Shown: positions 16,630 through 55,025 of the stretch, one piece after another
Layout of the letters: each line of letters begins with the position of its first letter
Numbering within the stretch: position 1 is the stretch's first letter
From: Squalus acanthias
Taxonomy: Eukaryota
Reading direction: 5' to 3'
DNA: 64,000 nt
Assembly (NCBI GenBank): GCA_030390025.1
Contig: CM059432.1
Location: forward strand, 91,390,001 to 91,454,000
Notes under the pieces: model-generated
What the model was told of the DNA's origin: nothing
Databases searched by the model: none
The model's input: only the letters and a program-made list of their open reading frames with translations
Position numbers and translations under genes: made by a program

Positions 16630-17409
16630 TAATATATTACCCCCAATCCCACGAGCCCTGATCTTGTGTAACAACCTCTTGTGTGGCACCTTATCGAATG
16701 CCTTCTGAAAATCCAAAGACACTACATTCACTGGTTTTCCCTTATCTACCCTGCTAGTTACTCCAAACAGATTTGTCAAACACGATTTCCCTTTCATAAA
16801 TCCGTGTTGACTCTGCCTAATCATAGTGATTTTCCAAGTGCCCTGTTACCACGTCCTTAACAATATAGATTTGAACACCTCTATTAAATCTCTTTAATTG
16901 CAAGCATTATTATGGTATGGACACAACCAGAGGCAAAGAAATGTAACTGGAGGAGGAATAGTCAGTTTCAGAAGGTCAAGTGCTCACAAGGAAGAAGCAC
17001 TGCTGCTGATTGGAAGTCACACAGGAGAAGCTGTGGGAGATAGGGACGTAGGTGAAGCATCACGAGGAGATTTGTAAAGGCAGGGCAAAGGAGAACACAG
17101 ATGGTTTCAACTTTATATGGAAAGTTAAAGGGGTAAAAATTCACTTGGTTGCGCCTCCCGTTAGCGCCTTAAGAGGGCGCTAATGGAGCGTTAAGCCGCT
17201 AACGCCCGGGCGCAGCGCTGTTTGCGCCGCTCGAGAACTTAACTTGAGATTGTGCGGCGGCGCTAAAACTTACCGCTGCGACCACCTGCGCGCGCAGATT
17301 GTGACGTCATTCCATGGTGCAACGCCCTTGGGGCGCCCCGGAGCGGAAATTGAGTGGCTCCCCCTGCCTTACCGCCTGGCGCTTCCAACGACCGGAAGAC
17401 TGGAACGTT

Positions 17410-17450
17410 CCAATCGGTGTGGGGCTGGGGGGGGCGCTATTTAAAGGGGG
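17410..17450 (+). promoter_or_regulatory. Candidate transposase promoter (CCAAT, GC-rich box, TATTTAAA)
   Basis: ccaat at 17410, a G-rich run, then tatttaaa at about 17438, roughly 270 bp upstream of the ATG. Confidence 0.45.
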
Positions 17451-17498
17451 CCTCTTCCTGTCTTTTTCTGTGGTCGATATTTATGCACCACTCGTTCT

Positions 17499-17526
17499 GA
17501 GAGAGAGAGAGAGAGAGAGAGAGATT

Positions 17527-17601
<75 letters not shown>
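17499..17601 (+). repeat. Interrupted (GA)n microsatellite in the transposase 5' region
   Basis: Three GA runs separated by the same TTCG interruption. Confidence 0.95.
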
Positions 17602-17605
<4 letters not shown>

Positions 17606-17705
17606 CTACATTGACTCAACGCTTTGTGAGGTAGTTTTGCCTATTCATCCTAACTTTGTTGCTACTTTAGTTGCTGTACCTCATTACTTTTCTGGCAAAG
17701 AGAAT

Positions 17706-18867
17706 ATGGGGGCTGCAATGATTGGGGGCGTCGTCCTGCTCCAGCTGAATCGGAGGATACAGAGACGCAGACAGAGAGTGGCAATGATGGCCAGACGGAG
17801 GAGGGCCATCAGGCGCATGTACAGGAGAGCTTACCCTCCCAGGGTATATCGTGAACAGCTCTCCTACATCCATATGTCCGAGGAGCTGTGTTTGCGGAGG
17901 CTGCGATTCAGCAAGGAGGTGGTCACTGAGCTCTGCCACCTGCTGCAGCCAGATCTGCAGCCTCAGCTGAGGTCCAGGACGTCTCTGTCGGTGGCAGTGA
18001 AGGTCACAGTGGCTTTGAACTTCTACGCCACTGGCTCATTCCAAGCTGCTGTTGGGGACCTCGCCAATATCTCCCAGTTTGCGGTGCATCGCTGCATCCG
18101 GCAGGTCACCAATGCCCTCTTCAGAAGGAGACGAGACTTCATCTCTTTCCCTATGACCCCAGACAAGCAGCGTGACCGTGCTCTGGGCTTTGCGAGGGTA
18201 GCGGGCTTCCCCATGGTGCAGGGCGCCATTGACTGCACGCATGTGGCTTTGCGTGCTCCGCGAGAGAATGCAGAGGAATTCAGGAACAGAAAGGGGTTCC
18301 ATTCCTTGAATGTGCAGTTGGTCTGTGACCACAGACAGGTGATACTCGCGGTCAATGCCCACTATCCGGGCAGCTGCCACGATGCTTTCATCCTGCGCCA
18401 GACTACTGTGGCAGAAGTTTGAGGCACCGCATCAGCCAGTTGGTTGGCTTCTGGGGGACAAGGGGTACGCATTGAGCACCTGGCTGATGACACCGCTCCG
18501 TACGCCAAACACCCCTGCTGAGCTGCGGTACAATGAAAGCCATCAAGCAACCAGGAACATTATTGAGCGCACAATCGGCGTGCTGAAACAACGGTTCCGC
18601 TGTCTGGACCATTCCGGAGGAGCCCTGCAGTACTCGCCTGAGCAAGTTTCGAACTTCGTAGTCGTGTGCTGCATGTTGCACAACATGGCAATCCTCAGGA
18701 CCCAGCCAATGCCACCAGGCCTTGTAGCACCACCAGAGGAGGAGGAGGAGGAAGAGGAGGAAGAGGACGAGGACGATGATCATCAGCAGCACCAAGGCAG
18801 GAGGGCGGCCCACAATGGTCAAACTGCAAGGGCCGTCCGTCAACGACTAATAGCAAGCCGCTTCTAG
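17706..18867 (+). CDS. Harbinger (HARBI1-like) DDE transposase, about 387 aa, one frameshift near 18418
   Basis: ORFs 17637-18422 and 18355-18867 join to give [56 protein letters not shown] and CCMLHN. Confidence 0.92.
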
Positions 18868-19161
18868 GGCCCCTGCCATTGCTACAAACACTAATCAACC
18901 CAGCACGCAACCCCTAAGCCGGCCAAGGCACCAATAATTCCAACCACCAGCCATGTATATTTTGAATACAGAAACTTATTTATTTTACAAACTCTGTGTG
19001 TGTCAATTCCTCATGACAAACTCATAGAAATAAACACAAAAAAACAGTCAATAACATAACTGGTTCTCACAACCTGGAGATAATGTCCAAAACACTAAAC
19101 AAAAGTTGGACCATGAACCTCGGCCTTTAATAAAAAAATGACCAGCATTTTGGCACACCTC

Positions 19162-20140
19162 CTACTTTTTGCCCTTCGAGGGTGATCTCCTTCCCTTGCG
19201 CACTTCCCCCCTTCTAACCCTACTGCTCCTCCGTAATGGGACCTCAGTGGCTGCAGCAAGGCTGGTGGAAGGCTGCTGCTCGTCAGACCCGGACACTGCA
19301 GATGCCCCTGAAGGACGGCCTCGACCACTTCTGGGCCTGGAGGGCCCGGCTGCAGACTGCACCAACTCTGCATGGGCGGCAGCAGTCTGTCCTACAGGCG
19401 GTGGCAAGTGCAGTGGAGAAGTGACAGTGTTGGCAGCAGGAATGCTGTCATCGTGAGAGAGGCCAGCAACTCCCTGCTCGCCCGACACACTGGCACTCCC
19501 ACGGGGCAGCACTTCAGCATCCGGAGCAATCTGCCGGAGAACGGATTGCTGGCCTGCTGCGGCGCGGTGACAGCCCCGGGGACATGTGCACGAACCATCG
19601 AGGTTGGCAGCAGTCTGTGCTCGCGTGGCCTCCATCTGAGTCTGTATGAGAGCAGTCAGAGGTGGGATCACGGCAGCCAGTGACTGAATTGCAGCACTAA
19701 GCGTTAGTGTGGCATCCGCCTGTGCTACAGCGAAGTGCTCCACACTCCTTGCCAGTGACTCAATGCATTCGGGCACCCTTCCCACTGCACCCATGAGCTC
19801 AGTGTGCATGCCCACCGCCTGGGTGTTCATTTCTGCAATCAGCCGCTCCTCCTCTGCGTCCATTGCAGTAGGAGTGTCTGGCATACTCTCCCTCTGGGGA
19901 GAAGGCCCCCTTCTTCCCTGCCCCCCCCATGGCGTTGCTGCAGCCCGCTGGGTCCTGGAGCTTCACCATCATCAGCCCCTTCCCCCCTGCTCCCCTCCGG
20001 GGAAGGCGTGTTCCCAGTGTGGGCATGGGCTTCCTCGGGAGAGGGTGGCACTGATGCTCTGGCTTCCTCTTCCTCCTCAGCTGCAGCATCACTCCCAGTG
20101 GCAGCTTCAGGGCCCGTCTCCTCAGCTGGTGAATCACCAT
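19162..20140 (-). CDS. Harbinger Myb/SANT-like protein, exon 3 (1-nt frameshift in a G8 run at 19921-19928)
   Basis: ctttcAG acceptor; acidic low-complexity region, then a helical segment (GMHTELMGAV..ESLARSVE) and a basic tail. Homologous to ORFs at 6098-6682 and 50802-51569. Confidence 0.8.
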
Positions 20141-20299
20141 CTGAAAGCAGGGAGGTACAAGAGTGGCTTTAGCGTGAGGACAGGGTGGCAGTAAGGGAGG
20201 AATAAGTGCAGCGAGTTAGCAAGTTGGATTGAAAGTGTCAAAGGCTGGTATTGTGAGGGACAAGTGGAAGGACAGAGGACAAAAAGGTGATGACCTTAC

Positions 20300-20462
20300 C
20301 ATTGCTGTCCACAACGGGGTCGGCGTCTCCAGTGGCGACGGGACCGATCACCCGGCTTGCCACAATCCTGTGGACGCGCTCCTCCAGATCGCTGAGGGGT
20401 TGCAGCTGAAGCCGCCCTCCACCCGTCCGTTGCTGCTGTCTCCGATTATGAGCCAGCTTAGC
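20300..20462 (-). CDS. Harbinger Myb/SANT-like protein, exon 2
   Basis: ttttcttgcAG acceptor, AKLAHNRRQQQRTGGG...LSDLEERV, GTAAGG donor (phase 1). The same exon is seen in the other copies. Confidence 0.85.
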
Positions 20463-20490
20463 CTGCAAGAAAAAGGACAGCATCTGAGTA

Positions 20491-21192
20491 AATATACAGC
20501 CATGGTCTTCCCTGATGTGCCTCCCATAGGTGAATAGCCCTTACAATATACAGCCATGGTCTTGCCTGATGTGCCTCCCATAGGTGAATAGCCCTTACAA
20601 TATACAGCCATGGTCTTGCCTGATGTGCCTCCCATAGGTGAATAGCCCTTACAATATACAGCCATGGTCTTGCCTGATGTGCCTCCCATAGGTGAATAGC
20701 CCTTACAATATACAGCCATGGTCTTGCCTGATGTGCCTCCCATAGGTGAATAGCCCTTACAATATACAGCCATGGTCTTGCCTGATGTGCCTCCCATAGG
20801 TGAATAGCCCTTACAATATACAGCCATGGTCTTGCCTGATGTGCCTCCCATAGGTGAATAGCCCTTACAATATACAGCCATGGTCTTGCCTGATGTGCCT
20901 CCCATAGGTGAATAGCCCTTACAATATACAGCCATGGTCTTGCCTGATGTGCCTCCCATAGGTGAATAGCCCTTACAATATACAGCCATGGTCTTGCCTG
21001 ATGTGCCTCCCATAGGTGAATAGCCCTTACAATATACAGCCATGGTCTTGCCTGATGTGCCTCCCATAGGTGAATAGCCCTTACAATATACAGCCATGGT
21101 CTTGCCTGATGTGCCTCCCATAGGTGAATAGCCCTTACAATATACAGCCATGGTCTTGCCTGATGTGCCTCCCATAGGTGAATAGCCCTTAC
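20491..21192. repeat. Tandem minisatellite, 13 x 54 bp
   Basis: Unit aatatacagccatggtcttgcctgatgtgcctcccataggtgaatagcccttac; 12 identical copies plus one with a single substitution; no spacers. Confidence 0.97.
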
Positions 21193-21340
21193 TGTATGCA
21201 AAGTGTGGAATGTGTGTGTGTGTTTGATGAAAGGGCCATAGGTGTTGGATGAGTGTTGTGCATTGGGGTTTTAAGACCCTCTGGCCATAGAGTGAGGTTG
21301 AGATGGAGGGATGGAGAGGTATTGAGAAAAAGCCACTCAC

Positions 21341-21577
21341 CCTGACGACCCGAGTGAGGTCGTTGAACTTTTTGCGGCATTGAGTATGGGTCCTGGGCAC
21401 CATGCTCCTGGAGGAGACGCTCTGAGCCACCTCCCTCCACACTCTTCTGAACTCGCGTGGCAAAGGCCTCCTGCCACTCTCAGGGAACAGCATACATCGT
21501 CTGCGCTCCACTGCGTCAACCAGAGCATCCAAGGCCCGCTCGGTGAAGCGATGAGCGCGTTCTCTCACCCTCTCCAT
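21341..21577 (-). CDS. Harbinger Myb/SANT-like DNA-binding protein, exon 1
   Basis: MERVRERAHRFTERALDALVDAV...WREVAQSVS...RTHTQCRKKFNDLTRVVR followed by a GTGAGT donor (phase 0). Confidence 0.9.
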
Positions 21578-22859
21578 GCTTGGCAGCAAAATGGATTACA
21601 GGTCTCTCCAGGCTGAGATTCAAGGCTGCAATGAGCAGGGTGTGGCTGGGGAGCAAGTGGCCCCCCCCGCTTTAAGAAGTGGCCGGCGCCAGTGTGTCTG
21701 TGTTCCCTCGCTAACTGGCAGCAGCTGCGCTGCGCTCGTGCGCTGAGTTAGCGCCTCACTCCTTGGCCTTTGCGCCTTGAGAGGTGTGCAGCGCCTGCTT
21801 TAGCGCTCCACTCACCTCCCGGGGCGGTAAAAGTGAAGTTTCCTGTCAGTGCCGATAATTAGCGCCAGGCGCTAATATTTGCGTCCGGACGATATTTGCG
21901 CCCCAAATGGGGCGCGACCTAATTTCTACCCCAAAGTATTTAAACGGGCATTGAGTCAGCCACTATTTTTTCCAAAGAGACATGTCGATGTTTACACAGA
22001 TAATGAAGCATTTGTTTAACATCCTAGGAGACGGCCTAGAGGAAGAGAAGAACCGGTCAGAGGAGTACCTGGGCATTTCAAGCTGCACAACTCCTGCCCT
22101 ATCCTCACCAATTCTGTCATGGAATCTTACATGCTCCTGCAGCACCCCAGAGACACCCACACAGGAGGAAGTAGTTAACAAGTATATTGGTAAGTATGGC
22201 GACCCGGAATAGGGTGGAAAAACACCCGCCCTAAGCTGAGGAGACTAAGGACCCAGATCTCAAAAGCCCAGTCTTCAAACGAACAATGATTTGGGAGCAG
22301 CAATTCCATGCCCAGTGCAATAGAAACAGTATTCATGCATATTATCAAGAAATCCACTACAAGCAGCTGCAGCACAATGCAGGAAGTTTGTTATGCCTTG
22401 CAGAATATCCGGTGAGTAGGACAGTTCAGGAGATTTCTGCATCTAAAAGATGCCAAGAGGAGCTACTAGGGACAGTGGTGCATTCGAGTGGCAGCTACCA
22501 CTGCTTCAGTAGGTGCATTAAGGGTCAGCCTTAATATGACAAATTCATAAGGCTTCCAGGACTTAACTGGAATTATTTGGTCTGTTCTCACATTGATCAG
22601 TAGCATCGCCGAACCTGTGTCCAGCACCAGTGGGCTGTAAAGAGCGGTAACGAGGTTGAACTTCCAGAGGTTCTCCCGATCGACCGCTGTAACTTTGGTG
22701 GAAGATCCACGGAAGCCCCAGAGAGATGGTGTAAATGCCTTCTGTGTTTTGTGCAAGACCGCTGCTTGGCTGCAAATTGGAAAACGGAGCCAACTGGCTG
22801 TTCTTAAAAGGGATGGTGCACCCAAATTAAAGAGTAGTAGAGGAGTAGTGGGTAAACAT

Positions 22860-38308: not shown

Positions 38309-40935
38309 GTTGATATACATACATTAACCTTTTAGATTGGCATATATACAATGAGCATTTTATATGCACATAAATTTAATGGTTGGAAAGGGCTGTTGCA
38401 TTGTCCACAGCGTGGGATGCATTTTCTTGCTAAAAGCAAGCACTCTCCCAGCTTGCAAGCGATAGAATATCGCACCCAGCGCATGGGAATTGGATTTAAA
38501 GGATAGTTATGGTCAACCATGTGTAGTACTGTAGTGTGCTCAGTGCCATGGCTTCTCTAGTATAACGGGGATTGGAATAAGATAAATGTTTGTAGTCAAA
38601 ATGGGAATGGGTTCTTATGCATCCAGGAGCACTTTCTTAATCAGTGTGTTGCATGTCCAACAAGCAAGGACAAAGTACTAAATCTGATCTGGATCATGAA
38701 ATAAAGTGGCGTGAAGGTAGGAGAATATGTCCGCTTTCCCCAAACAAGGCCATCAACGCAGGAGGGGGCAGGTCCAGGGGCTCCTTGGGACTTCCCAATT
38801 TCCCACCCCTAAAAAGGGACCTAACATTTCATTGCTGTACCAGCCCACCAAACAATGGATGCGGGGTCCAGGTCATGATCCCAAATAGAAACCAATTAAA
38901 AAAAAAAATGTGACCTCATTAAAATAGGGCAGTCTCCTTGGTCTAGCAATTTACAATAGTGGGTGTTGTAGATGCAGCCATTTTATAAGGGTGCCTGCCA
39001 CCGGCATGTAAAATGGGACCAATCCTTGATCGCACAAACTTCAGCAGGGTAAATAGCAGAGATCCCAGGTGGAGCACTTGGTACTCACACCAGAATCTGT
39101 CACCCTTGCAGATTTTCAGAATCCTTATGTTCTGGTACTGGACTTCTATACTAGGGCTCTGAGATTCCTCAGTTTGCAATCCGTGTGAGGGCACTTTATT
39201 TAGAAGGGATAGGTGGGCTCAGGTGCCACTTCTGCCACATCTCCAGCATCCATCTGCCCAAGAAAGGTAACTCTAGTGCGTGACCATCCTGGGGGTTGCC
39301 CAGGTCCCCATCCCAGCCATGGTTCCCTCAGCACCCTGAGCAAGGGCACTAATCTGTAAGAGATTTTTTATAAATCTCATCTTTGGAGGTCCAGGCCAGT
39401 TGTCTGTACCTCACTGGTGGGGCCCACTTTCACACTTGTAGAAACCAGTACAGCATCACACTCAGTGTACCGAACTCCATTGATGTGCTACAACCCCGTC
39501 CAACCTAAGGAGCAAGAACTCCCAGGGTAAGAAATCCCTGCCCTGACTCCACCCACTGGCTGTCATTTATAAAAAGAGATAGACGGAGGTACTGCCCTTT
39601 AAAAGGAAACTAGCAAACTCCTGGAATCAGCAGAGACCAGGACTCTGCCATTTTCCTGCTGGAGGTATGGCTGAAGATCAGCAAAACCTATGAGGAATTT
39701 TGGGACATAGATGTTTATCAGTAAGCATGTTTTAAAATTTTATAGTATGGTGCTTACATATGACTTTCTGGCAAATTGAAAGCCTGTAAAGTTAATAAAC
39801 CATACATAATGATGAGCTGTGGGATACAATTTATATCCCATGATTGGGTTGGCCAAATGCAAAATTGAGTGTTATGGTCACAAATGTAAGTGATTATAGA
39901 TTGAGAAGCATAGCTCATCATATTTTCTATTTCTGCCACATAAGTAATTAAAATGATAATGTTAAATGCAAATATTAAACACTTTGATTTGATGTCACTA
40001 CAAAATGCTTTTGGCAAAGTACAGTCTGTTTTCCATTATGATGTCACCTCTGCGAAACATAAATATTTCTTAGAAGTGCCATCACTATCTAAATTATAAA
40101 GTTACTTATTGATTTGTAACGTTCCCACAGAGAATTGTTGGCACATTGTATCATTAGTTCTAGCAATATGTTTTGATTTCAAATACTGAATGTAAAGGCA
40201 CTTAAAAGTCCTTTTAAGTCCACTCAAAGTGGGCAACCCTGCCGATTTCTCACTTACCTCGGCTGAAGTGTCCTTCAGGGATATAAAATACACCGACCAT
40301 TATTGCTACAAGTGCTCCAAACTTGAATAACCAGAAGCTTTGAAAAGAGAATGTTAATGGCACCATAAGTCTTAAATTTCTCTATATCTACTGTATTCCT
40401 TCTTATGCAATCCTGAAAGATTTTATCTATGCTTTATAATTTAATTTCATTCTAAAAAAAATCAAAGAAACCATTGTGTTACTTTAAAGACAATTGCAAT
40501 TTAAAGACAATTGCAATTTACATGTATTTTAATTTTATACAGAATTAATTTGATTTAATATTAAGAGTTGCTTGGTATCCATAAGAGTAAAGGATGAATA
40601 ACTACTGATGGATAATAAAACAGTTTTAAAATACAATCATTTAAAGTCTGATATACTTCATATTGTCTTGAAGAAAGTAAGCTTTAATAAAATGCAGTAC
40701 AGGCTGATTTTTACCAATTCCACTCCTGGAAGAGCGCCTCATCCTCCATGAGCTCATATCAAGAATTGCAATTTCCAGTATGTGCTACAAGCAGGCAAGG
40801 GTCTCTGTCAAGAGCATGATTTTGTAAACTTGGTCCTTATAATTAAAAGTATATTGTTTTTAAGACGCATGCAATGATTATAAACTCGTTTCTGCCACAG
40901 AATTTCTTTCAAAAACAATTTACAAAAAAACTTAC

Positions 40936-41126
40936 CCGTTGTGTATTAGGGCCCTGGGATCTTTGCTATTTCTCACATTGATCATAAGCAGAGCTAACAG
41001 CAGAAAGAAAGTGGCCATTCCAAAGCAGATACGATACACAGACTTGTAACCAACCAACACTCTGCAGATCACAGGGTTAACTTCAGTGAACTGTGCATTA
41101 TATCCGAACTCGCAGAATCCTGGAAT
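40936..41126 (-). CDS. SERINC: SERINC coding exon, equivalent to exon 3
   Basis: 191-nt exon between ttttAG and GTaag, in phase with the previous exon: [63 protein letters not shown](G). Not in the ORF track. Confidence 0.95.
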
Positions 41127-43139
41127 CTAAAAGGCAATTTCTTAGAGTTGCTATTTGTTTCACAAGAACCAACATTTGTAATCAAGGAAGAAATGTTAAG
41201 AAATATATGTGTTTAAAGAAAGAAATAGCACATATCATATCCTCAGAACGTCTGGAGTACATGCGTCGCACATTTATTCAAAGTGCAGTACTTTACACTT
41301 GTATGCATTACATTTTATTGCCTTTACTGCCCACATCCATATAGGCCTGAAAACCTGCTGGATCTCTGTCCAGGCAGAAATGCAAGGATGAACCTTCTTG
41401 TGACCTCTGGCACTGATCCCAAAATTTGCCGGGTCAGGCGGTCACCTAATTTGATTAACACAGACAGGAGCCCTGGCACTAGAGACACATCTTCTGACGA
41501 GTGCCCAACAAGTGGCTGTAAGCCCGTTCCAGGGAAAGCAGCAGGGGCCTCTTTCAGATAGATGCCCAGACTGTCTCTTCAGCTGAATTTATAAGATGAT
41601 GAAAAATCTTTAAATTTATTACCTTTTCAGGGGTCCAGACCATAATCCAAGCTTGAAACCCTGCCACCCCCACACGAATCACCCAGGTAAGACCCACATC
41701 TGCCAGATAGTGGGCCAGTATGTCTGGTCTGTCTTAATGTACCAGCCCACCACTCTTCTGCCAGACTGGGGATGAGGAGATTCCAAAGATAACACGGCAG
41801 CAAAAGTCTGCTAGGAGAGACTGTAGGACAGAATGCAGAGGAGCTATTTTGTTTAAGTAAAGTCAGATGATCCACCAAAGTGGGATAATGTTGCAAATTC
41901 ATTTTTTTTTATACCTTTATATGAAGCTAAGTTGTAGCAATGAAACTAAGGAATTTAATCATAACTATTGCCTTACTGTGGAATAAAGCACCTTAAATGA
42001 TTTAAACTAAGCTTCACCTCATCTAGTTTATTTCATTCTGCCTTTGGAGAGATTGAAGAAGTACATGTGGGAAAGAAACAGAAATCTGGTCCGGATTGAA
42101 AGGGAATTTTGTTGTTCTACTCCCAGGTTCCGCTACTATACAAGTAGATATAGGACAGTGCAAGTCGACTCCCAAAGATCAAGGGCTTGCGCTTCTGTTA
42201 GGTTGGACTAGTATTTCCAGCGCAATTAGCCCCAACTCAGCCAAACTAGTGCAAAAGATCGAGGAATTTCAAGCGCAAATTAAATCCAATGCAAATCGGG
42301 TTTCCGTGATCTTTAATTACGCCCGTTTGCGTGCCTTTGAAGAGGCTCTTAAAATTAAGCTTTTTTTTTTAGGCACAAGGGCACTAATCAGTACATTTTA
42401 AAACTTAAATATTTTTTTAATTTACTAAAAAACTGATTACTGTACACCAATGTAACTAGTAAATGGTTCTGTATAGTTTTTAAAAGTCATTTTCAGTTAT
42501 TTAAAATCAGGTGGTGGCCTAGACACTCTGAATAAAAATGCTTATTTTATGTGATAAACCCATTTTGAACTGTATTACGAAAACTGCACCAGGTTACCAC
42601 TCTTAAATAGATCAAGGAATATTTTTAATGCAAATGTTTGTCTTTTAAAATTACATTCCAAAACACTACCCGATTGCTCTGGTTCATGGAAGATTTACGT
42701 CGGTGATACGCAAATGAGTTTGAGGGGAAACTTGAGCAAAAAATTCACTTTGCAAAACTTGCGCAATTTTGAGCGCAATTTACGCCCAGATCGCCGATTA
42801 TGCCCACAGTGGAAACTCTTGGCCAAAGTGCACAGACCGCTTACGGTAGCGAATTACATCACTGAACGTATTTATGGCAGACTCAAATTCCTATCACCTT
42901 CTTTAGGGTGGGTGGAGGCTCCACACCAGACAAGGCCCCATGGAAACTACAAGGGAAGGCTGTGACCCAGCGTATCTAGGTGCTGACCTAATTTATGGCC
43001 CATTGCTGCACTTCTGTTGGACTTACAGCAGTAGGCTATGGAGAAAGAGCGGGGGAGTAGGACTAAAGGATAGCTCTTTCAAAGAGCTGGCACAGGCACG
43101 ATGAATCAAATGGCCGCCTTCTATGCTGTATGATTCTAT

Positions 43140-43827
43140 GGGGGAAAAATTCGGTTGCTTTGTGCCTCCCGTTAGCTCCCTAAAAGGGTGCTAATGGGGG
43201 CGCAAAGCAACTAGCGCCCAGTCGCAGCGCCGCCAACGCCTCGCGCGAAATTCAGCAGGAGGTTAGTGGCGGCGGTAACCGTTAGCGCCCCATGGCGCTG
43301 CGTCGCTGGTGATGATGTCATCGCTGTGCACAGCGCCCCGCTCACGATCTTCGATAGCACCCCCGACTTACCACCGGACGCCATGTCCGACGGGGTCAGG
43401 GGGGCCTACCTGCAGCCGGGGCGGGGCTATTTAAAGGCGAGGTGCCTGCCAGCACCTGCCTCAGCTGTCATCCCCGGCCTCCTGACCCACCCCCTCCCCG
43501 CGGAGTGCCAGCTGCACTCCATGAGCCCAGCACTTCGAGTGCCGGGCTCTTTTGCCGGCACTCCGATCCCCGGTGGCCCAGCTGGACCCCAGGTCACGCT
43601 ACGCAAGGCCCCTCCCCTTTAAGAAGGGGAGGAAGGCCTGCAATACTGCGGCGGGACATGTCGCGCCGCAATATTCCCTCGCAGCGCCCCAAGAGGGAGG
43701 CGGGGTACTTCCAGTAGCACCCCGCTTCCCTCCTGGGGCGCTACCACTCAATTTCGGCCGCGGGAGCTCAAAGTAGCACCCCGACGAAGTTAGCGCCCCT
43801 AAGGGGGCGCGACTCAATTTTTCCCCC
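43140..43827 (+). mobile_element. Harbinger MITE related to H1 (copy 2)
   Basis: Perfect 12-bp TIR GGGGGAAAAATT and 3-bp TSD TAT, inserted in a (tatgattc) CR1 tail. Confidence 0.9.
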
Positions 43828-44419
43828 TATGATTCTACGAATGCGCAAGAAATGCAACGAAATTTGAGCCCCAGTTTTTCCAACTCACTGGGGGTCAAAT
43901 CGATAAGGCCTGAAAATGAGTGCAGGGGTCATGATGTGCGATCCTTCCGTGCCCGTTGAAAGCAATGCAGGTAGCACGTGAAATTCGTACTGCCTGCTAA
44001 TTAACATGATTGAAGAGCTGAGCCCAGCGCTGAACACACTGCTGGTTGGCTCAGCGCTCAGCAGGGGGCCCAATTTTGTGGGAAGTGTGATCTCTATTTA
44101 AAGGTTGCCTGCAGTGTGAAACGCAGTCTGCACTTCTTAAAGGGGAGGTGCTTTCTGAAAGAAGCACCTCATTGTTAGTGTAGCAAAGGAAAGTGGTACC
44201 TATGTCTCAACAGGGCAGAGAAAGGGTACCTCGGTTCTCCGACGCAGCACTGGAGGCCTTAGTGCAGGGGATCGAAATGCCCTCCAGACTGACTAAGAAG
44301 GCAGTGGGAGCAGAGTGCTGAAGTAGTCAGTGCCACCAGTCCTTCCCCAGGGCCTGGATTCAGTGCCGCAAGTAGTTCAATGACCTCACGAGTAGTCAAA
44401 GTCAGTGAATTCATCTTTA

Positions 44420-47400
44420 CATAGGATATACGGCACAGAAACAGGCCATTCGGCCCAACAAGTCCATGGCATTTATGCTCCACACGAGCCTCCTCCCATC
44501 TTTCCTCATCTAAATCTATCAGCATAACCTTCTATTCTCTTCTCCCTCATATGCTTGTCTAGCCTCCCCTTGAATGCATCTATACTATTCACTTCAACCA
44601 CTCCCTGTGGTAGCGAGTTCCACATTCTCACCACTCTTGGGTAAAGAAGTTTCTTCTGAATTCCCTATTCGATTTCTTGGTGACTATCTTATATTGATGG
44701 CCTCCAGTTATGCTCTTCCCCACAAGTGGAAACATTCTCTCTGTATCCACTCTATCAAAATCTTTCATAATTTTAAAGACCTCTATTAGGTCATCCCTCA
44801 GCCTTCTTTTTGCAAGAGAAAAGAGACCCAGCCTGTTCATCCTTTCCTGATATGTATACCCTCGCATTTCTGGTATCATCCTTGTAAATCTTCGCTGCAC
44901 CCTCTCCAGTGCCTCTATATCCTTTTTATAATATGTCGACCAGAACTGTACACAGTACTTGCAAGTGTGGTCTAACCAAGGTTCGATACAGGTTTAGCAT
45001 AACTTCCCTACTTTTCAATTCTATCCCTCTAGAAATAAACCCTAGTGCTTGGTTTTCTTTTTTTTTTAAATGGCCTTGCTAACCTATGTCTCAACTTTTA
45101 GTGATTTGTGTATTTGTACTCCTAGATCCCTTTGTTCCTCTACCCCACCTAGACTCGCACCTTCCAAGTGATGTGACATCCCTATTCTTCCTACCAAAAT
45201 GTAATACCTCTGTGTTGAACTTCATTTGCCAATTATATGCCCTCCTCCTCAGTATTGACCTTGCCCCCCCAATTTGATGTTATCCGCAAATTTAGAAATT
45301 GTGTTTTTGATTCCCAAGTCTAAATCGTTAACGTAAATTGTGGACAGCAGTGGTCCTAGCACTGATCCTTGTGGAACACCACTACCCACCTTCTGCCACT
45401 GTGAATAGCTACCCTTTACTCCTACTCTTTGCTTTCTGTCCTGAAGCCAACCAGTAATCCATTCTGCTACTTGTCCCCTGACTGCATTCTCTGACCTTGT
45501 TCATCCGTCTATTATGGGGGTACCTTATTGAAGGCCTTTTGAAAATCCAGATAAATTACATCTACTGCATTACCATTGTCTACTCTCTCTGTTACCTCTT
45601 CAAAAAATTCAATAAGGTTGGTCAAGCTAGACTTTCCCTTTTGAAATCCATGTTGACTATTCATTATTATATTTTTGGTTTCTAGATGTTCTTCTATTTT
45701 CTCCTTTAGTAGGGATTCCATTATTTTTCCTACCACCGATATTAAGCTGACTGGTCTATAATTCCCTGGACATGTTCTATCCCCCTTCTTAAATATCAGT
45801 ATTACGTTAGCTATCCGCCAGTCCTCTGGCACTATACCTTTTTCTAACAAACTATTAAATATGCATAGTAATGCCTCTGCTATCTCTTCCCTAGATTCTT
45901 TTAAAATGCATGGATGCAATCCATCTGGACCAGGGGTTTTATCCTCTGAGTTTGATTAATTTATTTAATATATCCCCTTTTTAATTTTAAATGCACTTAT
46001 CTCATTACTAATCTCATCATCCAATGTCATGTCCACCTGTTCTACCTCCCTGGTAAATACTGAAGTAAAATAATTATTTAATATTTCTGCCATCTCTCTA
46101 TCATCACCTGTGGTATTATCCTGACTATCTCTTAATGGCCCTATTCCCATCCCAACCTTCCTTTATTTACTGATGTGCCTATAAAATATTTTACTATTTT
46201 GTTTTATGTTCCTTGATAATTTCATAGTTCCTCTTTGCCTCCCTAATTGTTTTTTTGACTTCTCTCCTAATCTTTTCGTATTCTCCCTTATCATGCACTC
46301 ATAAGAACATAAGAACATAAGAAATAGGAGCAGGAGTAGACCAATCAGCCCCTCGAGCCTGCTCCGCCATTCAATGAGATCATGGCTGATCTGATCCAAC
46401 CTCAACTCTAAAGAACACAAGAAGTAGGAGCAGGACCAGGCCACCCACAGGGCCTTGACCGATCCGAATTCAAACTCATGTCCAATTTCCAGCCCGCTCC
46501 CCGTAACCCCTAATTCCCTTTACTTCTAGGAAACGGTCTATTTCTGTTTTAAATTTATTTAATGAAGTAGCTTCCACAGCTTCCTGGGGTAGCAAATTCC
46601 ACAGACCCACTACCCTCTGAGTGAAAAAGTTTCTCCTCATCTCAGTTTTGAAAGAGCAGCCCCTTATTCTAAGATTATGTCCCCTAGTTCTAGTTTCACC
46701 CATCATTGGGAACATCCTCACCGCATCCACCCGATCAAACCCCTTCACAATCTTATATGTTTCAATAAGATCGCCTCTCATTCTTCTGAACTCCAATGAG
46801 TAGAGTCCCAATCTACTCAACCTCTCCTCGTATGTCCACCCCCTCATCCCCGGAATTAACCGAGTGAACCTTCTTTGTACTGCCTCGAGAGCAAGTATGT
46901 ATTTTCTTAAGTATGGACACCAAAACTGTATGCAGTACTCCAGGTGCGGTCTCACCAATACCCTATACAACTGCAGCAATACCTCCCTGTTTTTATATTC
47001 TATCCCCCTAGCAATAAAAGCCAACATTCCATTGGCTTTCTTGATCACCTGCTGCACCTGCATACTAACTTTTTGACTTTCTTGCACCAAGACCCCCAGA
47101 TCCCTTTGTACTGCAGTACTTTCCAGTTTCTCACCATTAAGATAATAACCTGCTCTCTGATTTTTCCTGCCAAGTGCATAACCTCACATTTTCCAATATT
47201 GTATTGCATCTGCCAAATCTCTGCCCACTCACCCAGCCTGTCTATATCCCCTTGTAGGTTTTTTATGTCCTCCTCACTCTCTACTTTCCCTCCCATCTTT
47301 GTATCATCTGCAAACTTTGATATGTTACACTCGGTCCCCTCCTCCAAATCGTTAATATAGATTGTAAAGAGTTGGGTACCCAGCACCGACCCCTGCGGAA

Positions 47401-50310
47401 CACCACTGGCTACTGGTTGCCAGTCCGAGAATGAACCATTTATCCCAACTCTCTGCTTCCTGTTAGATAACCAATCCTCCACCCATGCCAGAATATTACC
47501 CCCAATCCAGTGATTTTTTATCTTGAGTAATAATCTTTTATGTGGCACCTTGTCGAATGCCTTCTGGAAGTCTAAATACACTACATCCACTGGTTCCCCT
47601 TTATCCACCCTGTACGTTATGTCCTCAAAGAACTCGAGCAAATTTGTCAGACATGACTTCCCCTTCATAAAGCCATGCTGACTTTGTCCTATTAAATTAT
47701 GTTTATCTAAATGTTCCGTTGCTGTCTCCTTAATAATAGACTCCAAAATTTTACCCACCACAGATGTTAGGCTAACTGGTCTATAATTTCCAACCTTCTG
47801 CCTACTACCCTTTTTAAATAAGGGTGTTACATTAGCAGTTTTCCAATCTGCCGGGACCTTTGCTGAGTTCAGGGAGTTTTGGAAAATTATTACCAAAGCA
47901 TCCACAATTCCTACTGCCACTTCCCTCAAGACCCTAGGATGTAAGCTATCAGGTCCAGGGGATTTATCCGCCTTGAGTCCCATTATTTTACTGAGTACCA
48001 ATTCCTTAGTGATTTTAATCGTATTTAGCTCCTCCCCCACTAGAGCCCCCTGTTTGTCCAGTGTTGGGATATTCTTAGTGTCCTCTACCGTAAAGACTGA
48101 AACAAAATATTTGTTCAGCATTTTTGCCATCTCCATGTTTCCCACCATTAATTTCCCGGTCTCATCCTCTAAGGGACCTACGTTTGCCTTAACCACCCTT
48201 TTTCTTTTTATATAACTATAGAAACTCTTGCTATCTGTTTTTATATTTTTTGCTAATTTATTTTCATAGTCTATTTTCCCTTTCTTAATCAATCCTTTAG
48301 TTACTTTTTGTTGTCTTTTGAAGACTTCCCAATCTTCTATCCTCCCACTAACTTTGGCTACCTTATATGTCCTTGTTTTTAGTTGGATACTTTCTTTAAT
48401 TTCTTTACTTAGCCATGGATGGCTGTCATTTCTTTTACACCCTTTTTTCCTCAGTGGAATATATTTATTTTGAAAGTTGTAAAATAACTCCTTGAATGAA
48501 CACCACTGCTCATGTACCGTCTTACCCTTTAATCTATTTTCCCAGTCCACTTTAATCAATTCTGCTCTCATACCATCATAGTCTTCTTTCTTCAAGCTCA
48601 GTATGCTTGTTTGAGAACCAACCTTCTCACCCTCTAATTGGATATGGAATTCAACCATGTTATGGTCACTCATTCCAAGGGGATCCTTAACTAGGACATT
48701 ATTAATTAGTCCTGACTCATTACACAGTACCAGGTCCAAGGTTGCTTGCCCCCTTGTAGGATCAGTTACATACTGCTCAAGAAATCCATCCCTAAGACAC
48801 TCAATAAACTCTTCCTCAAGGCTGCCCTGCCCAATTTGATTTGTCCAGTTAATAGGATAGTTAAAATCCCCCATAATTATAGCTGTTCCCTTATTACATG
48901 CCCCAACTATTTCCTGATTAATACTTCTTCCAACAGAGTTGCAACTATTAGGAGGCCTATATACTACGCCCACCAGTGTTTTTTTCCCCTTATTATTCCT
49001 TATCTCTACCCAAACTGTTTCATTATCCTGATCTTTTGACCCAATATCATTTCTCTGTATTACAGTGATTCCTTCCTTTATTAACATAGCCACCCCCCCT
49101 CCCCTTCCTTCCTGCCTGGCCTTCCTGATTGTTAAATACCCTGGCATATTTAATTCCCAGACGTTGTCACCCTGCAGCCATGTTTCTGTAATGGCCACAA
49201 GATCATACCCATACATAGTTATTTGTGCCGTTAACTCGTCCATTTTGTTACGAATGCTACGTGCATTCAGATAAAGAACTTTCAAATGTGTTTTGCGACA
49301 CTTACTTCCTGCTTTTTCCTTATTTAACACTTTACCTTTTACTCCATGCTTTCCTCTGTCTCCCTGCTCAGGTTCCCAACCCCCTGCCACATTAGTTTAA
49401 ATCCTCCCCAACAGCACTAGCAAACACTCCCCCTAGGACAGCGGTCCCGGCCCCTTCTGTCTTTGTATGTAATATATGCCTCTTTCCTTACCCTCAATTG
49501 TTCCCTTATGGCTTTATTCATCCATGGAGTCTCATTATTGTTTAGTTTGTTCTTTCCTTTTAGCAGAATATATTTTTCCTGCACTCTGTTGAACACTGTT
49601 TTAAATGTTTCCCATTGCTATTCTACATCGTTGTTTGCTAATATTGTTGACAATTTCCCCCCCCCCAAGTTCTATTCTCAGCCCTTCAAAATCAGCTTTT
49701 CTCCAATCTATTAACCTGGTTTTCATCATACTTATATCCTTCTCAATTATCATCTTAAAGCATATTATATTATAGTCACTATTGCCTATATGTTCCCCTA
49801 CCTTTACTTCTCTTATCTGCTCTGGCTCATTTCCCATTACTAGATCCAATAGCGAATCCTCCCTTGTTGGGCTTTTTACATGTTGGGTTAGGAAGGAGTC
49901 CTGTACACATTGTAGGAACTCCATTCCCTTATCCCCTTTACCTACCTACTTCTTCTGTCCAATTAATATCTGGGTAGTTGAAATCCCCCCTGATTATTAT
50001 TCTATGTTTTTTACTCATTTCCCTAATTGGTCTGCATATTTCTTCCTCCACCTCCCTTCCACTATTAGGTGGTCTGTAGTCTACATCTATTAGTGTGATT
50101 GATCCTTTATTATCTTTTATCTCTATCCATATGGATTCTATTTTTGTCTTACTGATATCTTCGTCACTTTTTTCTACTGCCATTATGTTATCCCTATTAA
50201 GTACAGCTACTCCACCTCCACCTTTTCCCTCCCTATCTTTTCTCAATATGTTATACCCTGCAATGTTTAATTCCCAGTCCTGATTTTTCTGCAGCCAAGC
50301 CTCAGTAATC
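44420..50310 (-). mobile_element. Older CR1 (44420-46300 and 49455-50310) in intron 1 of the H4 Myb gene
   Basis: APE fragments at 49601-50246, RT at 45512-45919, C-terminus at 44628-44900. Confidence 0.85.
46301..49452 (-). mobile_element. Young CR1 with near-intact ORF2 (APE plus RT), one frameshift near 47171
   Basis: 781-aa ORF 47045-49390 ([31 protein letters not shown]) continued by ORF 46476-47090; duplicated 3' UTR. Confidence 0.95.
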
Positions 50311-52370
50311 CCTTCTCAGTAATCTTCAAAATGCCATATACCACTATCTGCACCACTAGCCTCACACACGGCTCAATGCACCACACCCCCATCACTCACT
50401 TACAAACAATCTCTAGCAATCACGACCCATACCTCACAATCATAGCTTCACCTCACCCTCACACATTTACCACTGCTGCAAGCCTCACACCCACATCTCA
50501 CAGCTTGCACACAATGCCAGCTATTCAAACATGACAGGCACATCACCCACACACATTGCACCACACTCACCGACACACTTCCCTTTCTCTTGCAGGCCAA
50601 AGTGGTGCATAACCGGCACCGACAGCAGCAGACAGGTGGGGCCAAGCATGGCTGCAGAACCTGACTCAGCTGGAGGGCCATCACTGAGGCCATGGCAATC
50701 GGAGAGGTTGAAAGCATTGCTGATGACAGTATGCTCATACCTAATCCTTCTTCTCACCTCCCACAATCACTTCTCACTTACAAGCTGCTGATGGTGTAAA
50801 CATGTACATCGTGCTTTATCCCTGCTCCCCTCACCACAACCCTACCCTTGTGCCTTTCTCCTTACAGATACTTAAGAACTCCAACCAGCCCATCCTGTGC
50901 AGGAAGAACAAGAGGAGTGATAGAGAAGAGACACCCTCACTCGATCTGACACTCGCAGGCACCAGCTCAGAAAATGGCACTGCGCGCACTTTAGATAGCA
51001 TAGAGGCGGGATCTGCACGTGGTGAGTCACCAGGCACGAGTGGACTGCAGCAAGGGCAGGCAGAAAGGGTAGCGCAGGTGCCAGCTCCCCAGAGAGCAAA
51101 GTCACACACGAGTTCCGCTGCAGAGGACACAGATGAGGACTTCGATGGGGCGGCCTTCAGGAGACAGATGATGGGGATGGACACTGAAATGCTTGGTGCA
51201 TTGGCAGGTCTGCCAGAGAGTCTGTTGTCACTGTCAAGGAGTATGGAGGAGTGCGGCTCCAACCTTGCACAGGGCTTTGCGTAGACCTTGAAGCCCATGA
51301 TTTCCAGGATTGACGTGATGGGCAGCTCGATTCGAGCACTTGTGGACCCAACCATGATGCTGGGTCTGATGGGCGATGTCGCAGCTTCCATTGAAGCACA
51401 AGTGGAAGTGATCCAACGTCTGAATACTGCAGTGGAAGCTCAGACTTCTGTCATGCAGGCTCAGCTCGCTGCCACGCAAGATCAGACTGCTGCCATCGTG
51501 GCTCTGTTTACCAGTGTTGAAAGGGGCTTGCAAGGCTTCACAGCAGTCCAGCAATCTGTGCTCCAATAGATTACGACAGCGCCGCCCCTGGGGCGTGACA
51601 GTGGCTCCGTGGAGCACGAACTTGCTGTCCTCTCTCAGGATGACTGCATTCCTGCTCCCACCACTGCCACTCCACCACTACCTTTGCTGTTGCCTGTCAA
51701 CCAGCCAGCCCAGACTGCTGCCGTCCATGCCGAATGGTGCAGTCTACAGCAGGGCATTTTAGGCCCAGAACTGCACGAGTTCATCCTGCAAGGTCATCTG
51801 CAGTCTTGCCCACTGAAAGTCAGCAGCCTACCACCCAAGGCATGCTGCATCCACTGGAGTAGCACTTTGTAGGAGCAATAGGATAGGCAAAGGCACACGA
51901 AAGACAGGCACTAAGGGAATGCGCAAGGGTGATTAGTTGACTTTGTTATGTAGCGTTGGAATTAATCATTTATAAATAATGTTTGGAATGTCAGTTTTGT
52001 GGTGGCTTTCATTTCAGCATTGTGATCAAGAGGACACTGTGATGTTCCATGACAGAGGGATGGAAAGGTGGGTACGTGTTGAGCAACGGGTTCTGGGGTT
52101 TCATTCAGGGGAACCTGAGTCTGATGATGCGCTCATGAACAGCCCGTCCAGAACAGGGATTTGCAGGTTGCCTCCTCCCTTCCTCCTCCAGAGGTGGTCA
52201 TGGATCCCGTGGTGACAAGGGCTGCGCCCTCATGATGGCCAAGCTGTGGAGGATGCAGCAGACCACCACGAATTGGGACACCTGCTCCGGCAAGTATGCG
52301 AGGGCTCCTCCTGAGCGGTCAAGGCAGTGGAACCGTTGCTTGAGCACCCTGATAGTCTGCTTGGTAACGT

Positions 52371-53790
52371 TCATGGCTGATCTGCGACCTAACTCCATAT
52401 ACCTGTCTTTGCCCCATAGCCCTTAATACGTCTGACTAACAAAAAGCTATCAATCTCAAATTTAAAATTAACAACTGACCTAGCATCAATTGCCGTTTGC
52501 GGAAGAGAGTTCCAAACTTCTACCACCCTTTGTGTGTAGAAGTGTTTCCCAATTTCACTCCTGAAAGTCTGGCTCTAATTTTTAGACTATGCCCCCTAGT
52601 CCTAGACTCACCAACCAGCAGAAATAGTTTCTCTCTATCTACGCTATCTGTTCCCCTTAATATCTTGAAAACTTCGATCAAATCACCCCTTAACCTTCTA
52701 AATTCCAGGGAATACAACCCTAATTTGTGTAATCTCTCCTCGTAACTTAACCCTTGGAGTCCTGGTAAACCTACACTGCACTCCCTCCAAGGCCAATATA
52801 TCCTTCCTAAGGTGTGGTGCCCAGAACTGCTCACAGTACTCCAGGTGTGGTCTAACCAGGGCTCTGTGTAGCTGTAGCATAACTTCTACCCCCTTGTATT
52901 CTAGTCCTCTAGATATAAAGACCAGCAATCCATTAGCCTTTTTGATTATTTTCTGTTAATGTCATTTTAATGATCGATGTACCTGGACCCCCTTGTCTCT
53001 TTGGGCGTCCACTGTTTTTAGCTTTTCACCATTTAGAAAGTACCCTGTTCTATCCTTTTTAAGTCCAAAGTCGATGACCTTACATTTGCCTACATTGAAA
53101 TCCATTTGCAACAGTTTTGCCCATTCACTTAATCTATCAATATACTCTTTGTAATTTTATGCTTTCATCTACACTGCCTACAATGCCACCTATCTTGTGT
53201 CATCAGCAAACTTGGATATGTGGCTTTCTATCCAATCATCTAAGTCATTAATAGATATGATGAATAGTTGAGGCCCCAGCACAGATCCCTGTGGGACACC
53301 ACACTCGTCACATCCTGCCAATTAGAGTACCTACCCATTATCCCTACTCTCTGTCTCCTGCCACTCAGCCAATTTCCTAACCATATCAATAATTTGCCTT
53401 CAATTCCATGGGTTTCAACCTTTAGTAATAGTCTCCTATGAGGGACTTTATCAAATGCCTTCTGGAGGTCCATATAAATAACATCCATAGACATTCCCCT
53501 GTCCACTACTTTAGTCACCTCTTCAAAAAATTCAATCAGGTTCATCAAGCATGACCTACCTTTCACAAATCCATGCTAGCTCTCTCTGATCAGCTGAAAA
53601 TTTTCAAGGTGTTCAGTCACCCTATCCTTGATTATAGACTCTGGTAATTTTCCGACAACAGACGTTAGGCTAACTGGTCTATAATTCCCTGGTTACCCCT
53701 CTCACCATTCTTAAATAGCTGAGTGACATGCTCAAATTTTCAATCTAAAGGAACGGTTCCTGAATCGAGAGAACTTTGGAAGATTATAGA
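52371..53790 (-). mobile_element. CR1 RT fragment inserted in the H4 transposase
   Basis: KGRSCLMNLIEFFEEV and RPHLEYC. Confidence 0.88.
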
Positions 53791-55025
53791 ATATATATGG
53801 TGGCTGGAAGATTGCTGGCACACCAGACTGGCACAGGATGACGCCTGACTGCTGCCAGGATATCGGGCATTCACCATCATGATGTACTGGGCGTGGTCGC
53901 TAACCAACTGCACATTACGTGAGTGGTACCCTTTGCGGTTACGGTACATCTCACCATTGATATGCAGCGCTCGCAAAGACACGTGTGTGCAGTCAATGGC
54001 GCCCTCCAGCACGGGGAGGTCCGATATCCTGGCAAAGGCACGTGCGCGCTCCTCCTGCTTCTCTCTGCTTAGAGAGAAGACAACAAAGTCCCTTCTGCTA
54101 GAATACAGAGGCTCTGTGACTTCCCAGCTTCGCGCCATCGTCACCCTGCTCTGAAGCTGCAGGTCTGGCTCCAAGAGGTGGCAGATTTCTGTAACCACCT
54201 ACTGGGTGAAGCGGAGCCGCCAAACACACTGCTCTTGGCTTAGCTGCAGGTAGGAGAAGTGCTCCCTGAAGACCCTAGGTGGGTAAGGCCTTCTGCTGAG
54301 AGCCCTCCTCCCCCTCCAAGCAACTTGTCTTCTTTGCTGCCTCTGCTCCATCTCCATGCCATGCTGCAGCGCGAGGGGGACTGCAACTAAAGCCCCTATA
54401 ACTGGGAGCAAGTGGTGTATTCAGAGGCCTTCCAGTAGCTGCCAACACCTTCCCAACCTCCAACAGCGCTCCCTGCACAATTTAACAGCTTTATAAATGT
54501 ATTCCAGCAATTCAGTATTCATACAAAGAGCCAGTACAAGAGCAATACTGCAAGTTGTATGCTTCCCTTTAAATAGCACTGGTGGAGGGGGGGTCCCTCG
54601 TGCAGCTGAACGCATGTCCAAAATGACAGATCGTGCGTCAAATCAGCACTGCACGCTGACTGCCGTCACAATCTGCCTACTCTCATACAGCCAGCGCACG
54701 CACATCCTGTTCATGCTATCACCCTCACCAAGATGGTGAACAGCGGTGGAAGCGAGGCGGACGCCTTTTTTCCCCCCGCCTTAACTACTGGCGCTAAGGT
54801 GCCGAATTTCGCAGCCATTATGTAAGTTCTGAGCTGCCTCCTTTCTTTCCACTGCCCCTCAGTTTGGTATCAGCAAATTTGATGCATTTGCATTTCTGAA
54901 TCACAGTCATTGATATAAATGAGAAACAATAATCCCTTGGGAGCATCCCACTCAGTACTTCCTCCAATCCTAACATAACTGCTCTAACAAATAGCTGTTG
55001 CTTCCGTCAAAGCAGCTATTTCATT

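What the first reader, a model, noticed from the sequence alone, without database searches (positions are those of the whole stretch)
17130..21932. Young, structurally complete two-gene Harbinger in a SERINC intron, possibly still competent
TIRs, TSD, CpG-rich subterminal regions, the catalytic motifs (GAIDCTH, HD, GDKGY, IERTIG) and canonical splice sites are all present. Restoring one small indel per gene gives a ~387-aa transposase and a ~459-aa Myb/SANT protein with no stop codons. Near-intact vertebrate Harbingers are uncommon, so this is a candidate for an active or easily resurrected element.
Basis: partly seen in the sequence, partly recalled or inferred. Interest (0 to 1): 0.72.

Follow-up and report, generated by a model that had tools for sequence, protein, structure and literature searches.

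The report
Broken copy of abundant shark Harbinger
This is a complete-looking but twice-frameshifted copy of a very abundant two-gene cut-and-paste jumping gene in what is likely a shark or ray genome; sister copies keep the reading frame at both breaks and are spliced in probable RNA data, so this copy would move only as a passenger and is an ordinary member of a known kind.

Summary
The anatomy is confirmed: a 4,803-bp PIF/Harbinger element with 12-bp TIRs (11/12 match), an AAA duplication, a DDE_Tnp_4 transposase on + and a three-exon Myb/SANT gene on -. Each gene has one frameshift; the 387-aa and 459-aa sums are right. It most likely lies in a SERINC intron over 40 kb long.

The copy is not rare: over 15,000 contigs per DNA run match it, and summed depth falls from about 10^6 to 19 at the right end. 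Sister copies carry the missing letters at both breaks, and neither loss simply lengthens or shortens a homopolymer, so the breaks are likely real and this copy cannot make either protein.

The family looks alive: two probable RNA runs splice Myb intron 2 exactly and keep both frames at the breaks; transposase variants are mostly synonymous (11 of 18); sister sites show an extended target preference resembling Harbinger3_DR. Current transposition is untested.

The scan has noted Harbingers in this genome many times (385 notes), some with both frames open. New member of a known kind.

The parts
17127..17129 (.). [quoted passage not shown]
   Evidence: sequence
17130..17141 (+). left terminal inverted repeat, 12 bp
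   Evidence: 11/12 match to the right end; same kind of end on MITEs at 28200 and 43140
17142..17450 (+). CpG-rich left subterminal region, with CCAAT (17410-17414) and TATA-like (17438-17445) words; likely transposase promoter and Myb binding sites (inferred)
   Evidence: CpG o/e 1.10 over 17130-17450 vs 0.40 for the window; words read from the sequence
17499..17602 (+). (GA)n microsatellite upstream of the transposase start
17706..18419 (+). transposase, N-terminal 238 codons, with the first catalytic D (GAIDCTH)
   Evidence: PF13359 E 1.2e-13; best relatives 63-69% elasmobranch 'putative nuclease HARBI1'
18420..18420 (+). frameshift in the transposase: two bases fewer than sister copies
   Evidence: two extra letters behind 18420 in 9 (X1), 5 (X2), 1 (X12) and 1 (X19) contigs, the whole depth in both probable RNA runs; an X at the break aligns to one residue in the 14 relatives aligned
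18421..18867 (+). transposase, C-terminal 148 codons and stop, with GDKGY, IERTIG and an acidic tail
   Evidence: PF13359 E 3.9e-20
18868..19161 (.). shared 3' region of the two convergent genes, with poly(A)-signal words on both strands (19029, 19129 on +; 18979, 19126 on -)
   Evidence: use not tested
19162..20140 (-). Myb/SANT partner gene, exon 3, with a frameshift behind 19910 (one base fewer than sister copies)
   Evidence: one extra letter behind 19910 in X12, X19 and 3 contigs of X2, none listed in X1; 19165-19908 open for 248 codons
20141..20299 (-). Myb intron 2, 159 nt, GT-AG
   Evidence: joint 20140-20300 in X12 (depth 264, side 18) and X19 (depth 52, side 29), 0 in DNA runs X1 and X2
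20300..20462 (-). Myb exon 2, 163 nt
20463..21340 (-). Myb intron 1, GT-AG, predicted only
   Evidence: consensus donor and acceptor; splicing not tested
20491..21192 (.). 13 x 54-bp tandem array at the 3' end of Myb intron 1; 12 units identical, 1 with one change
21341..21577 (-). Myb exon 1, 79 codons, Myb/SANT-like DNA-binding domain
   Evidence: PF13873 E 1.6e-9, PF13837 E 4.3e-7; one relative at 50% in Narcine bancroftii
21640..21920 (-). CpG-rich right subterminal region, likely Myb-gene promoter (inferred)
   Evidence: CpG o/e 0.86 over 21640-21932
21921..21932 (-). right terminal inverted repeat
   Evidence: depth cliff and loose ends at 21932
21933..21935 (.). right copy of the target-site duplication (AAA)
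40256..57070 (-). three upstream exons of the SERINC host gene (56942-57070, 40935-41084, 40256-40336); the next exon was not found in the window
   Evidence: PF03348; negative scan

Best explanation
This is one copy of a very abundant two-gene PIF/Harbinger cut-and-paste transposon family in a likely elasmobranch genome; it has one frameshift in each gene, likely real, so it would move only if sister copies supply the proteins. Mechanism, inferred from Harbinger3_DR and Ping/Pong (PMC2836001): promoters in the two CpG-rich ends drive two convergent genes. The spliced Myb/SANT protein binds the element's ends and brings in the DDE transposase, which cuts the element out and inserts it at a 3-bp core inside a roughly 15-bp preferred site. 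Shown here: the anatomy, the abundance, frame-keeping sisters, splicing of intron 2, an excess of synonymous transposase variants, and a one-sided target consensus. Inferred: binding, cutting, mobilisation in trans, and that the breaks are not assembly errors.
For: Pfam domains. 15,078 and 22,728 contigs laid on 2,871 bases, of which 3,348 and 5,616 are 99%+ alike. Depth cliff and many different flanks at 21932. Sisters carry the missing letters at 18420 and 19910. Neither loss simply lengthens or shortens a homopolymer: one includes a C and has a substitution 3 bases upstream, the other is a G between a C run and TT. The assembly looks accurate nearby: 297/297 flank letters match an X1 contig. 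Intron 2 joint with canonical ends in X12 and X19 only. Among the 40 listed of 129 variant sites, 11 of 18 in the transposase are synonymous against 0.24 expected, p = 8e-4. Sister right flanks give consensus TAAGTGTTTT (22 contigs) and TATATGTTTT (32 contigs); after the triplet, the X1 consensus is the palindromic mirror of the AAACAC half of the Harbinger3_DR site AAACACCWGGTCTTT (PMC3016246). The right end differs at 0 of 46 and 0 of 63 letters from contigs in two other organisms.
Against: No listed contig shows this copy's own broken alleles or bridges its junction, so a real lesion is not proved. X1 lists no contig with the extra base at 19910. RNA status of X12 and X19 is the tool's guess, and the joint has only 18 and 29 letters on its short side. 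No contig spans a whole gene, so a sister open in both genes is not shown here. The Myb gene shows no synonymous excess (6 of 20, p = 0.42). The variant rows are the tool's best-supported 40 of 129, not a random sample. This copy's TSD is AAA, not the TWA of the group definition. Flank consensus agreement is only 0.44-0.46 over 30 letters.
Confidence: 0.8

Rival explanations
1. The copy is in fact intact and autonomous; both frameshifts are errors of the assembly.
For: Start, stop, splice sites, catalytic triad and both ends are intact. No listed contig shows the broken alleles. Repeat copies are prone to consensus errors (general knowledge).
Against: Neither loss is a plain homopolymer slip. 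The flank is 297/297 identical to an X1 contig, and 12 array units are assembled without a difference. At four further sites (18350, 19291, 19463, 19543) 97-100% of the depth in all four runs differs from this copy, as private decay would give.
Confidence: 0.1
2. The whole family is extinct: an old burst that looks young because shark DNA changes slowly, with transcripts arising from read-through or residual promoters.
For: Measured shark rate 7e-10 per site per generation (PMC10587355, passages; a different species). 19 of 24 listed runs, labelled as organisms A-G or unlabelled, hold half or more of the words, which fits a burst older than their split. No insertion polymorphism was shown.
Against: Both probable RNA runs, from two organisms, keep the frame at both breaks and splice intron 2 exactly. 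Synonymous excess among transposase variants. Thousands of contigs are 99%+ alike. CpG is retained at both ends.
Confidence: 0.3
3. The locus is a domesticated HARBI1/NAIF1-like host gene pair.
For: The best protein hits are named 'putative nuclease HARBI1', and two pairs among them are 84-85% identical between species.
Against: TIRs, TSD, very high copy number and a frameshift in each gene. The copy is only 52-63% identical to the ten elasmobranch proteins aligned.
Confidence: 0.01

Closest known systems
Harbinger3_DR / Harbinger3N_DR of zebrafish (Sinzelle et al. 2008; not read, seen only as cited in passages of PMC3016246 and PMC2836001)
   Same: Vertebrate two-component Harbinger with DDE transposase and Myb-like partner; extended target preference with an AAA...TTT frame around a 3-bp core.
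   Different: The core here is TAA/TAT in sisters and AAA in this copy, not CWG. Harbinger3_DR was reconstructed, whereas here sisters keep the frame naturally. No sequence comparison with Harbinger3_DR was made.
PIF/Harbinger group of the PHIS superfamily (PMC4482050, passages read)
   Same: Two ORFs (DDE and Myb/SANT), TIR under 60 bp starting with G, 3-bp TSD. Length 4,155 bp without the array expansion, against a group mean of about 4,124 bp.
   Different: This copy's TSD is AAA rather than TWA, and it fails the paper's test for a potentially active element (both ORFs intact).
Elasmobranch 'putative nuclease HARBI1' proteins, e.g. P0001 and P0002 of Pristiophorus japonicus
   Same: 63-69% identity over the N-terminal piece; same motifs and length (P0002 is 387 aa).
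   Different: All ten elasmobranch relatives aligned lack the catalytic E of IERTIG, which this copy keeps. None of the 120 listed of 202 hits exceeds 70% identity.
Harbinger expansion in sea kraits (PMC8437027, listing and start of abstract only; passage in PMC9179366)
   Same: Massive amplification of a Harbinger family in a vertebrate genome.
   Different: That case is ascribed to horizontal transfer; here the nearest proteins are all from sharks and rays, which fits long residence.

Membership tests
PIF/Harbinger (PHIS superfamily) | transposase with DDE domain (DDE_Tnp_4) and catalytic triad | tested here: met
   PF13359 on both halves; D, D, E motifs present; frameshifted in this copy
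PIF/Harbinger (PHIS superfamily) | second, separate gene with a Myb/SANT domain | tested here: met
   PF13873 and PF13837 on exon 1; intron 2 spliced
PIF/Harbinger (PHIS superfamily) | short TIRs, usually under 60 bp, starting with A or G | tested here: met
   12 bp, 11/12, starts GGGG; right boundary confirmed by depth and loose ends
PIF/Harbinger (PHIS superfamily) | 3-bp target-site duplication | tested here: met
   AAA on both sides here, TAT on both sides of the MITE at 43140-43827; the MITE at 28200-28952 has unlike triplets. No empty site seen
PIF/Harbinger group in the narrow sense (PMC4482050) | TSD is TWA | tested here: inconclusive
   this copy AAA; sister consensus TAA in X1 (22 contigs) and TAT in X2 (32 contigs)
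PIF/Harbinger (PHIS superfamily) | extended insertion preference of 9-15 bp (PMC2836001) | tested here: met
   right-flank consensus over about 9 letters; 11-22 contigs per row follow this copy's flank to 21941-21944. Left side not tested
PIF/Harbinger (PHIS superfamily) | both proteins needed for transposition; Myb binds the ends | not testable with these tools
   known from PMC2836001 passages
Potentially active (autonomous) element | both ORFs intact | tested here: not met
   frameshifts at 18420 and behind 19910
NuwaI group | CWG target-site duplication | tested here: not met
   AAA here, TAA/TAT in sisters
NuwaII group | C|TNA|G target | tested here: inconclusive
   this copy T|AAA|G; X1 consensus TAA|G, X2 TAT|A; left base of sisters not seen; no tree with named groups built
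Domesticated HARBI1 / NAIF1 genes | single copy, no TIRs or TSD, intact frame (definition recalled) | tested here: not met

The most novel reading that the evidence does not exclude
The family is a naturally active vertebrate PIF/Harbinger: frame-keeping sisters are transcribed and spliced in at least two elasmobranch species, still transpose into a roughly 15-bp preferred site with an A/T core, and can mobilise this broken copy and perhaps related MITEs. It would give a native, unreconstructed two-component vertebrate transposon with its own site preference, persisting under purifying selection inside slowly evolving genomes.
Probability: 0.35. Interest if true: 0.6.

Novelty: new member of a known kind. 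Interest (0 to 1): 0.3.

Why it matters
This copy matters little on its own; it is a damaged passenger. The family matters more. [quoted passage not shown] A 2022 survey found none in elephant shark and asked for other cartilaginous fish to be tested (PMC9179366, passages); a later genome paper lists Harbinger and Tourist as the commonest DNA transposons of the grey reef shark without describing families (PMC12498223, one passage). A transcribed, spliced, frame-keeping family with a strong site preference would let two-component transposition and target choice be studied with native vertebrate proteins. It would also be a source of insertion variation in animals with a very low point-mutation rate.

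Tried and rejected
No genome was held, so copies could not be counted, dated or screened for open frames.

TIR plus TSD as proof of the ends: rejected, since 42 such pairs occur in the window and 14-19 in shuffles.

My first guess that both breaks are homopolymer errors (T run at 18418-18420, C run at 19921-19928): not borne out by where sisters differ.

Empty-site or polymorphism test: inconclusive. X2 has no cover at 21948-22077 where X1 has depth 19, but a hole proves nothing; no listed contig bridges the junction, and 49 loose-end rows were not shown.

No RNA holder is on record; four runs are guessed RNA.

Horizontal transfer to organisms E and G: each gave one contig with an identical right end. 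Trace host DNA, low cover of a relative, or a few-copy invasion cannot be told apart.

No solved structure matched the transposase piece (one chance hit, E 0.49). Myb exon 3 has no similarity to P0121. The flank ORFs at 16898-17074 and 21955-22209 match no Pfam family. A look-up of earlier notes by sequence found none, so it is not shown that those notes concern this subfamily.

Literature searches listed no paper describing a shark Harbinger family in detail. The library lacks most subscription journals and Repbase, and no supplements were read.
Full report
Observation. The element runs from 17130 to 21932 (4,803 bp). Its ends form a 12-bp inverted repeat with one mismatch, flanked by AAA on both sides. 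This pattern alone is weak: 42 such pairs lie in the window and 14-19 in five shuffles. The right end is fixed by other data. Summed contig depth falls from 1-2 million inside to 19 just outside, and 22 contigs of X1 and 32 of X2 leave the stretch exactly behind 21932 into other flanks. Two short elements in the window (28200-28952, 43140-43827) match both ends at about 78-82% and stop at the same kind of TIR. Both subterminal regions keep CpG (o/e 1.10 and 0.86, window 0.40).

Genes. On +, an ATG at 17706 opens 238 codons, and a second frame continues from 18421 for 148 codons to a stop at 18867. The pieces match PF13359 positions 1-65 and 73-158 and carry GAIDCTH, HD, GDKGY and IERTIG. On -, exons 21577-21341, 20462-20300 and 20140-19162 have canonical splice sites, and exon 1 matches PF13873. 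The best transposase relatives are shark and ray proteins at 63-69% (120 of 202 hits listed, none above 70%). The only Myb relative found among longer proteins is from Narcine. The host is therefore likely an elasmobranch.

Host gene. Three SERINC exons lie on - at 57070-40256 and cover Pfam positions 12-134 of 434. The 140 most hydrophobic of 511 minus-strand ORFs below 40250 gave no Serinc match. The gene should continue beyond the window's start, so the element most likely sits in an intron of over 40 kb, at least 17 kb from any exon. No effect on the gene is suggested.

Abundance. 19 of 24 listed runs hold half or more of the element's words, labelled as organisms A-G or unlabelled. On 2,871 bases, 15,078 (X1) and 22,728 (X2) contigs were laid, 3,348 and 5,616 of them 99%+ alike. 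Summed depth is no copy number. Even so, about 5 x 10^5 against 19 for the flank implies roughly a thousand or more copies after allowing about thirty-fold for overlapping contigs (inference). X1 may be the source sample and is not independent.

Are the breaks real? Behind 18420 sisters carry two more letters, in all four runs and in the whole depth of both probable RNA runs. Behind 19910 they carry one more, in X12 (220.5 of 220.5), X19 (26.1 of 54.6) and 3 contigs of X2, but in none listed for X1. The two RNA contigs also lack three letters at 19920, an in-frame difference. Neither loss simply changes a homopolymer's length. The flank matches an X1 contig at 297 of 297 letters. At four more sites, 97-100% of depth in all four runs differs from this copy. 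I put real lesions at about 85-90%; no listed contig shows the short alleles directly.

Is the family alive? A joint 20140-20300 with canonical ends appears in X12 (depth 264) and X19 (52), from two organisms and two studies, and not in the two DNA runs. This is exactly the predicted Myb intron 2. The runs are only guessed to be RNA, and the short sides are 18 and 29 letters. Of the 40 listed of 129 variant sites, 18 fall in the transposase and 11 are synonymous (expected 0.24, p = 8e-4); in the Myb gene 6 of 20 are (p = 0.42); 2 are non-coding. The variant sites are transversion-rich, ts/tv 0.69-0.90 in the four runs. Six of eight listed X12 contigs differ from this copy at 9 of 1,295 letters; the two left out differ at 15 of 172 and 17 of 175. 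Word shares of 0.50-0.66 correspond to 1.3-2.2%. At 7e-10 per site per generation (PMC10587355, passages, another species), even a few tenths of a percent of private change is millions of generations, so 'young' is relative. Present-day movement was not tested.

Target site. Sister right flanks give TAAGTGTTTT (X1) and TATATGTTTT (X2), and further groups of 11-22 contigs follow this copy's flank for 9-12 letters. After the triplet, the X1 consensus is the palindromic mirror of the left half of the Harbinger3_DR site AAACACCWGGTCTTT (PMC3016246, passage), with an A/T core instead of CWG. This copy's own site keeps the AAA...TTT frame over 15 bases. An extended preference of 9-15 bp is a known trait of the group (PMC2836001, passage).

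Mechanism. By analogy with Harbinger3_DR and Ping/Pong, the Myb protein would bind the ends and bring in the transposase, which would cut and paste the element. This copy would yield a 238-aa transposase with one of three catalytic residues, and a Myb protein that goes out of frame after about 210 residues. Its ends are intact, and the right end is identical to contigs in two other organisms, so sisters could likely move it in trans.

Comparison. It meets the tested features of PIF/Harbinger (PMC4482050, passages) apart from an AAA rather than TWA duplication at this copy, and it fails the both-ORFs-intact test. Harbingers were not found in elephant shark (PMC9179366, passages) but are the commonest DNA transposons of the grey reef shark (PMC12498223, passage). 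Searches listed no detailed description of a shark family; Repbase and supplements were not seen.

Earlier notes of this scan. 385 notes on this genome mention Harbinger. They describe copies with both frames open, thousands of copies, transversion-rich change and intron minisatellites. These are unchecked AI notes, and a look-up by sequence did not tie them to this subfamily.

Verdict. A real, well-preserved but broken copy of an abundant family that was under selection and is likely still transcribed. New member of a known kind; interest 0.3. The open question is whether the family still jumps, and a naturally open sister is the better subject for it.

Noticed in passing
window 20491-21192: 13 x 54-bp array at the acceptor end of Myb intron 1, 12 units identical. 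Without 12 units the element is 4,155 bp. The minus-strand frame of exon 1 stays open through the whole intron and array to 20348 (about 409 codons from the ATG), so an unspliced transcript would encode Myb plus 13 x 18-aa repeats; probably chance.
   Followed up: partly
window 17630-17701: Possible short 5'-UTR intron upstream of the transposase ATG (donor-like GAG|GTAGTT, pyrimidine-rich tract, AG). An X12 contig covers 17614-17748 unspliced and no joint was listed.
   Followed up: no
window 28200-28952 and 43140-43827: Two MITEs (753 and 688 bp) with ends related to this element. The second has TAT duplicated and the same 10 letters on both sides; the first has unlike triplets (TTA / GCA).
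   Followed up: partly
window 2-627, 1538-2460, 5965-6433, 9230-9439, 13519-13593, 29564-31128, 44208-44390, 51120-54264: Many older Harbinger remnants (about 68-73% DNA identity, 33-71% protein identity) of transposase and Myb genes in the same SERINC introns.
   Followed up: no
runs X10 and X13 on window 21870-21933: Organisms E and G each gave a single contig with an identical right end, against about 1,500 in organism A. Trace DNA, low cover or a few-copy invasion. The X10 flank looks like a shark CR1 LINE tail (recalled, not tested).
   Followed up: partly
proteins P0004/P0006 and P0008/P0014: Two pairs of full-length Harbinger-like transposases are 84-85% identical between species (Mobula/Narcine; Carcharodon/Chiloscyllium) and lack the catalytic E: candidate domesticated genes.
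   Followed up: no
window 18420 and 19910: In the sister sequence each lost stretch includes one base of a CpG. Two cases only.
   Followed up: no
window 47048-49396 (-): 783-codon open frame of a LINE-type ORF2 (endonuclease-like start, by eye), continuing in another frame at 46479-47183.
   Followed up: no
window 14498-14623: Perfect 8-bp repeat, 15.8 copies, at the tail of a LINE remnant.
   Followed up: no
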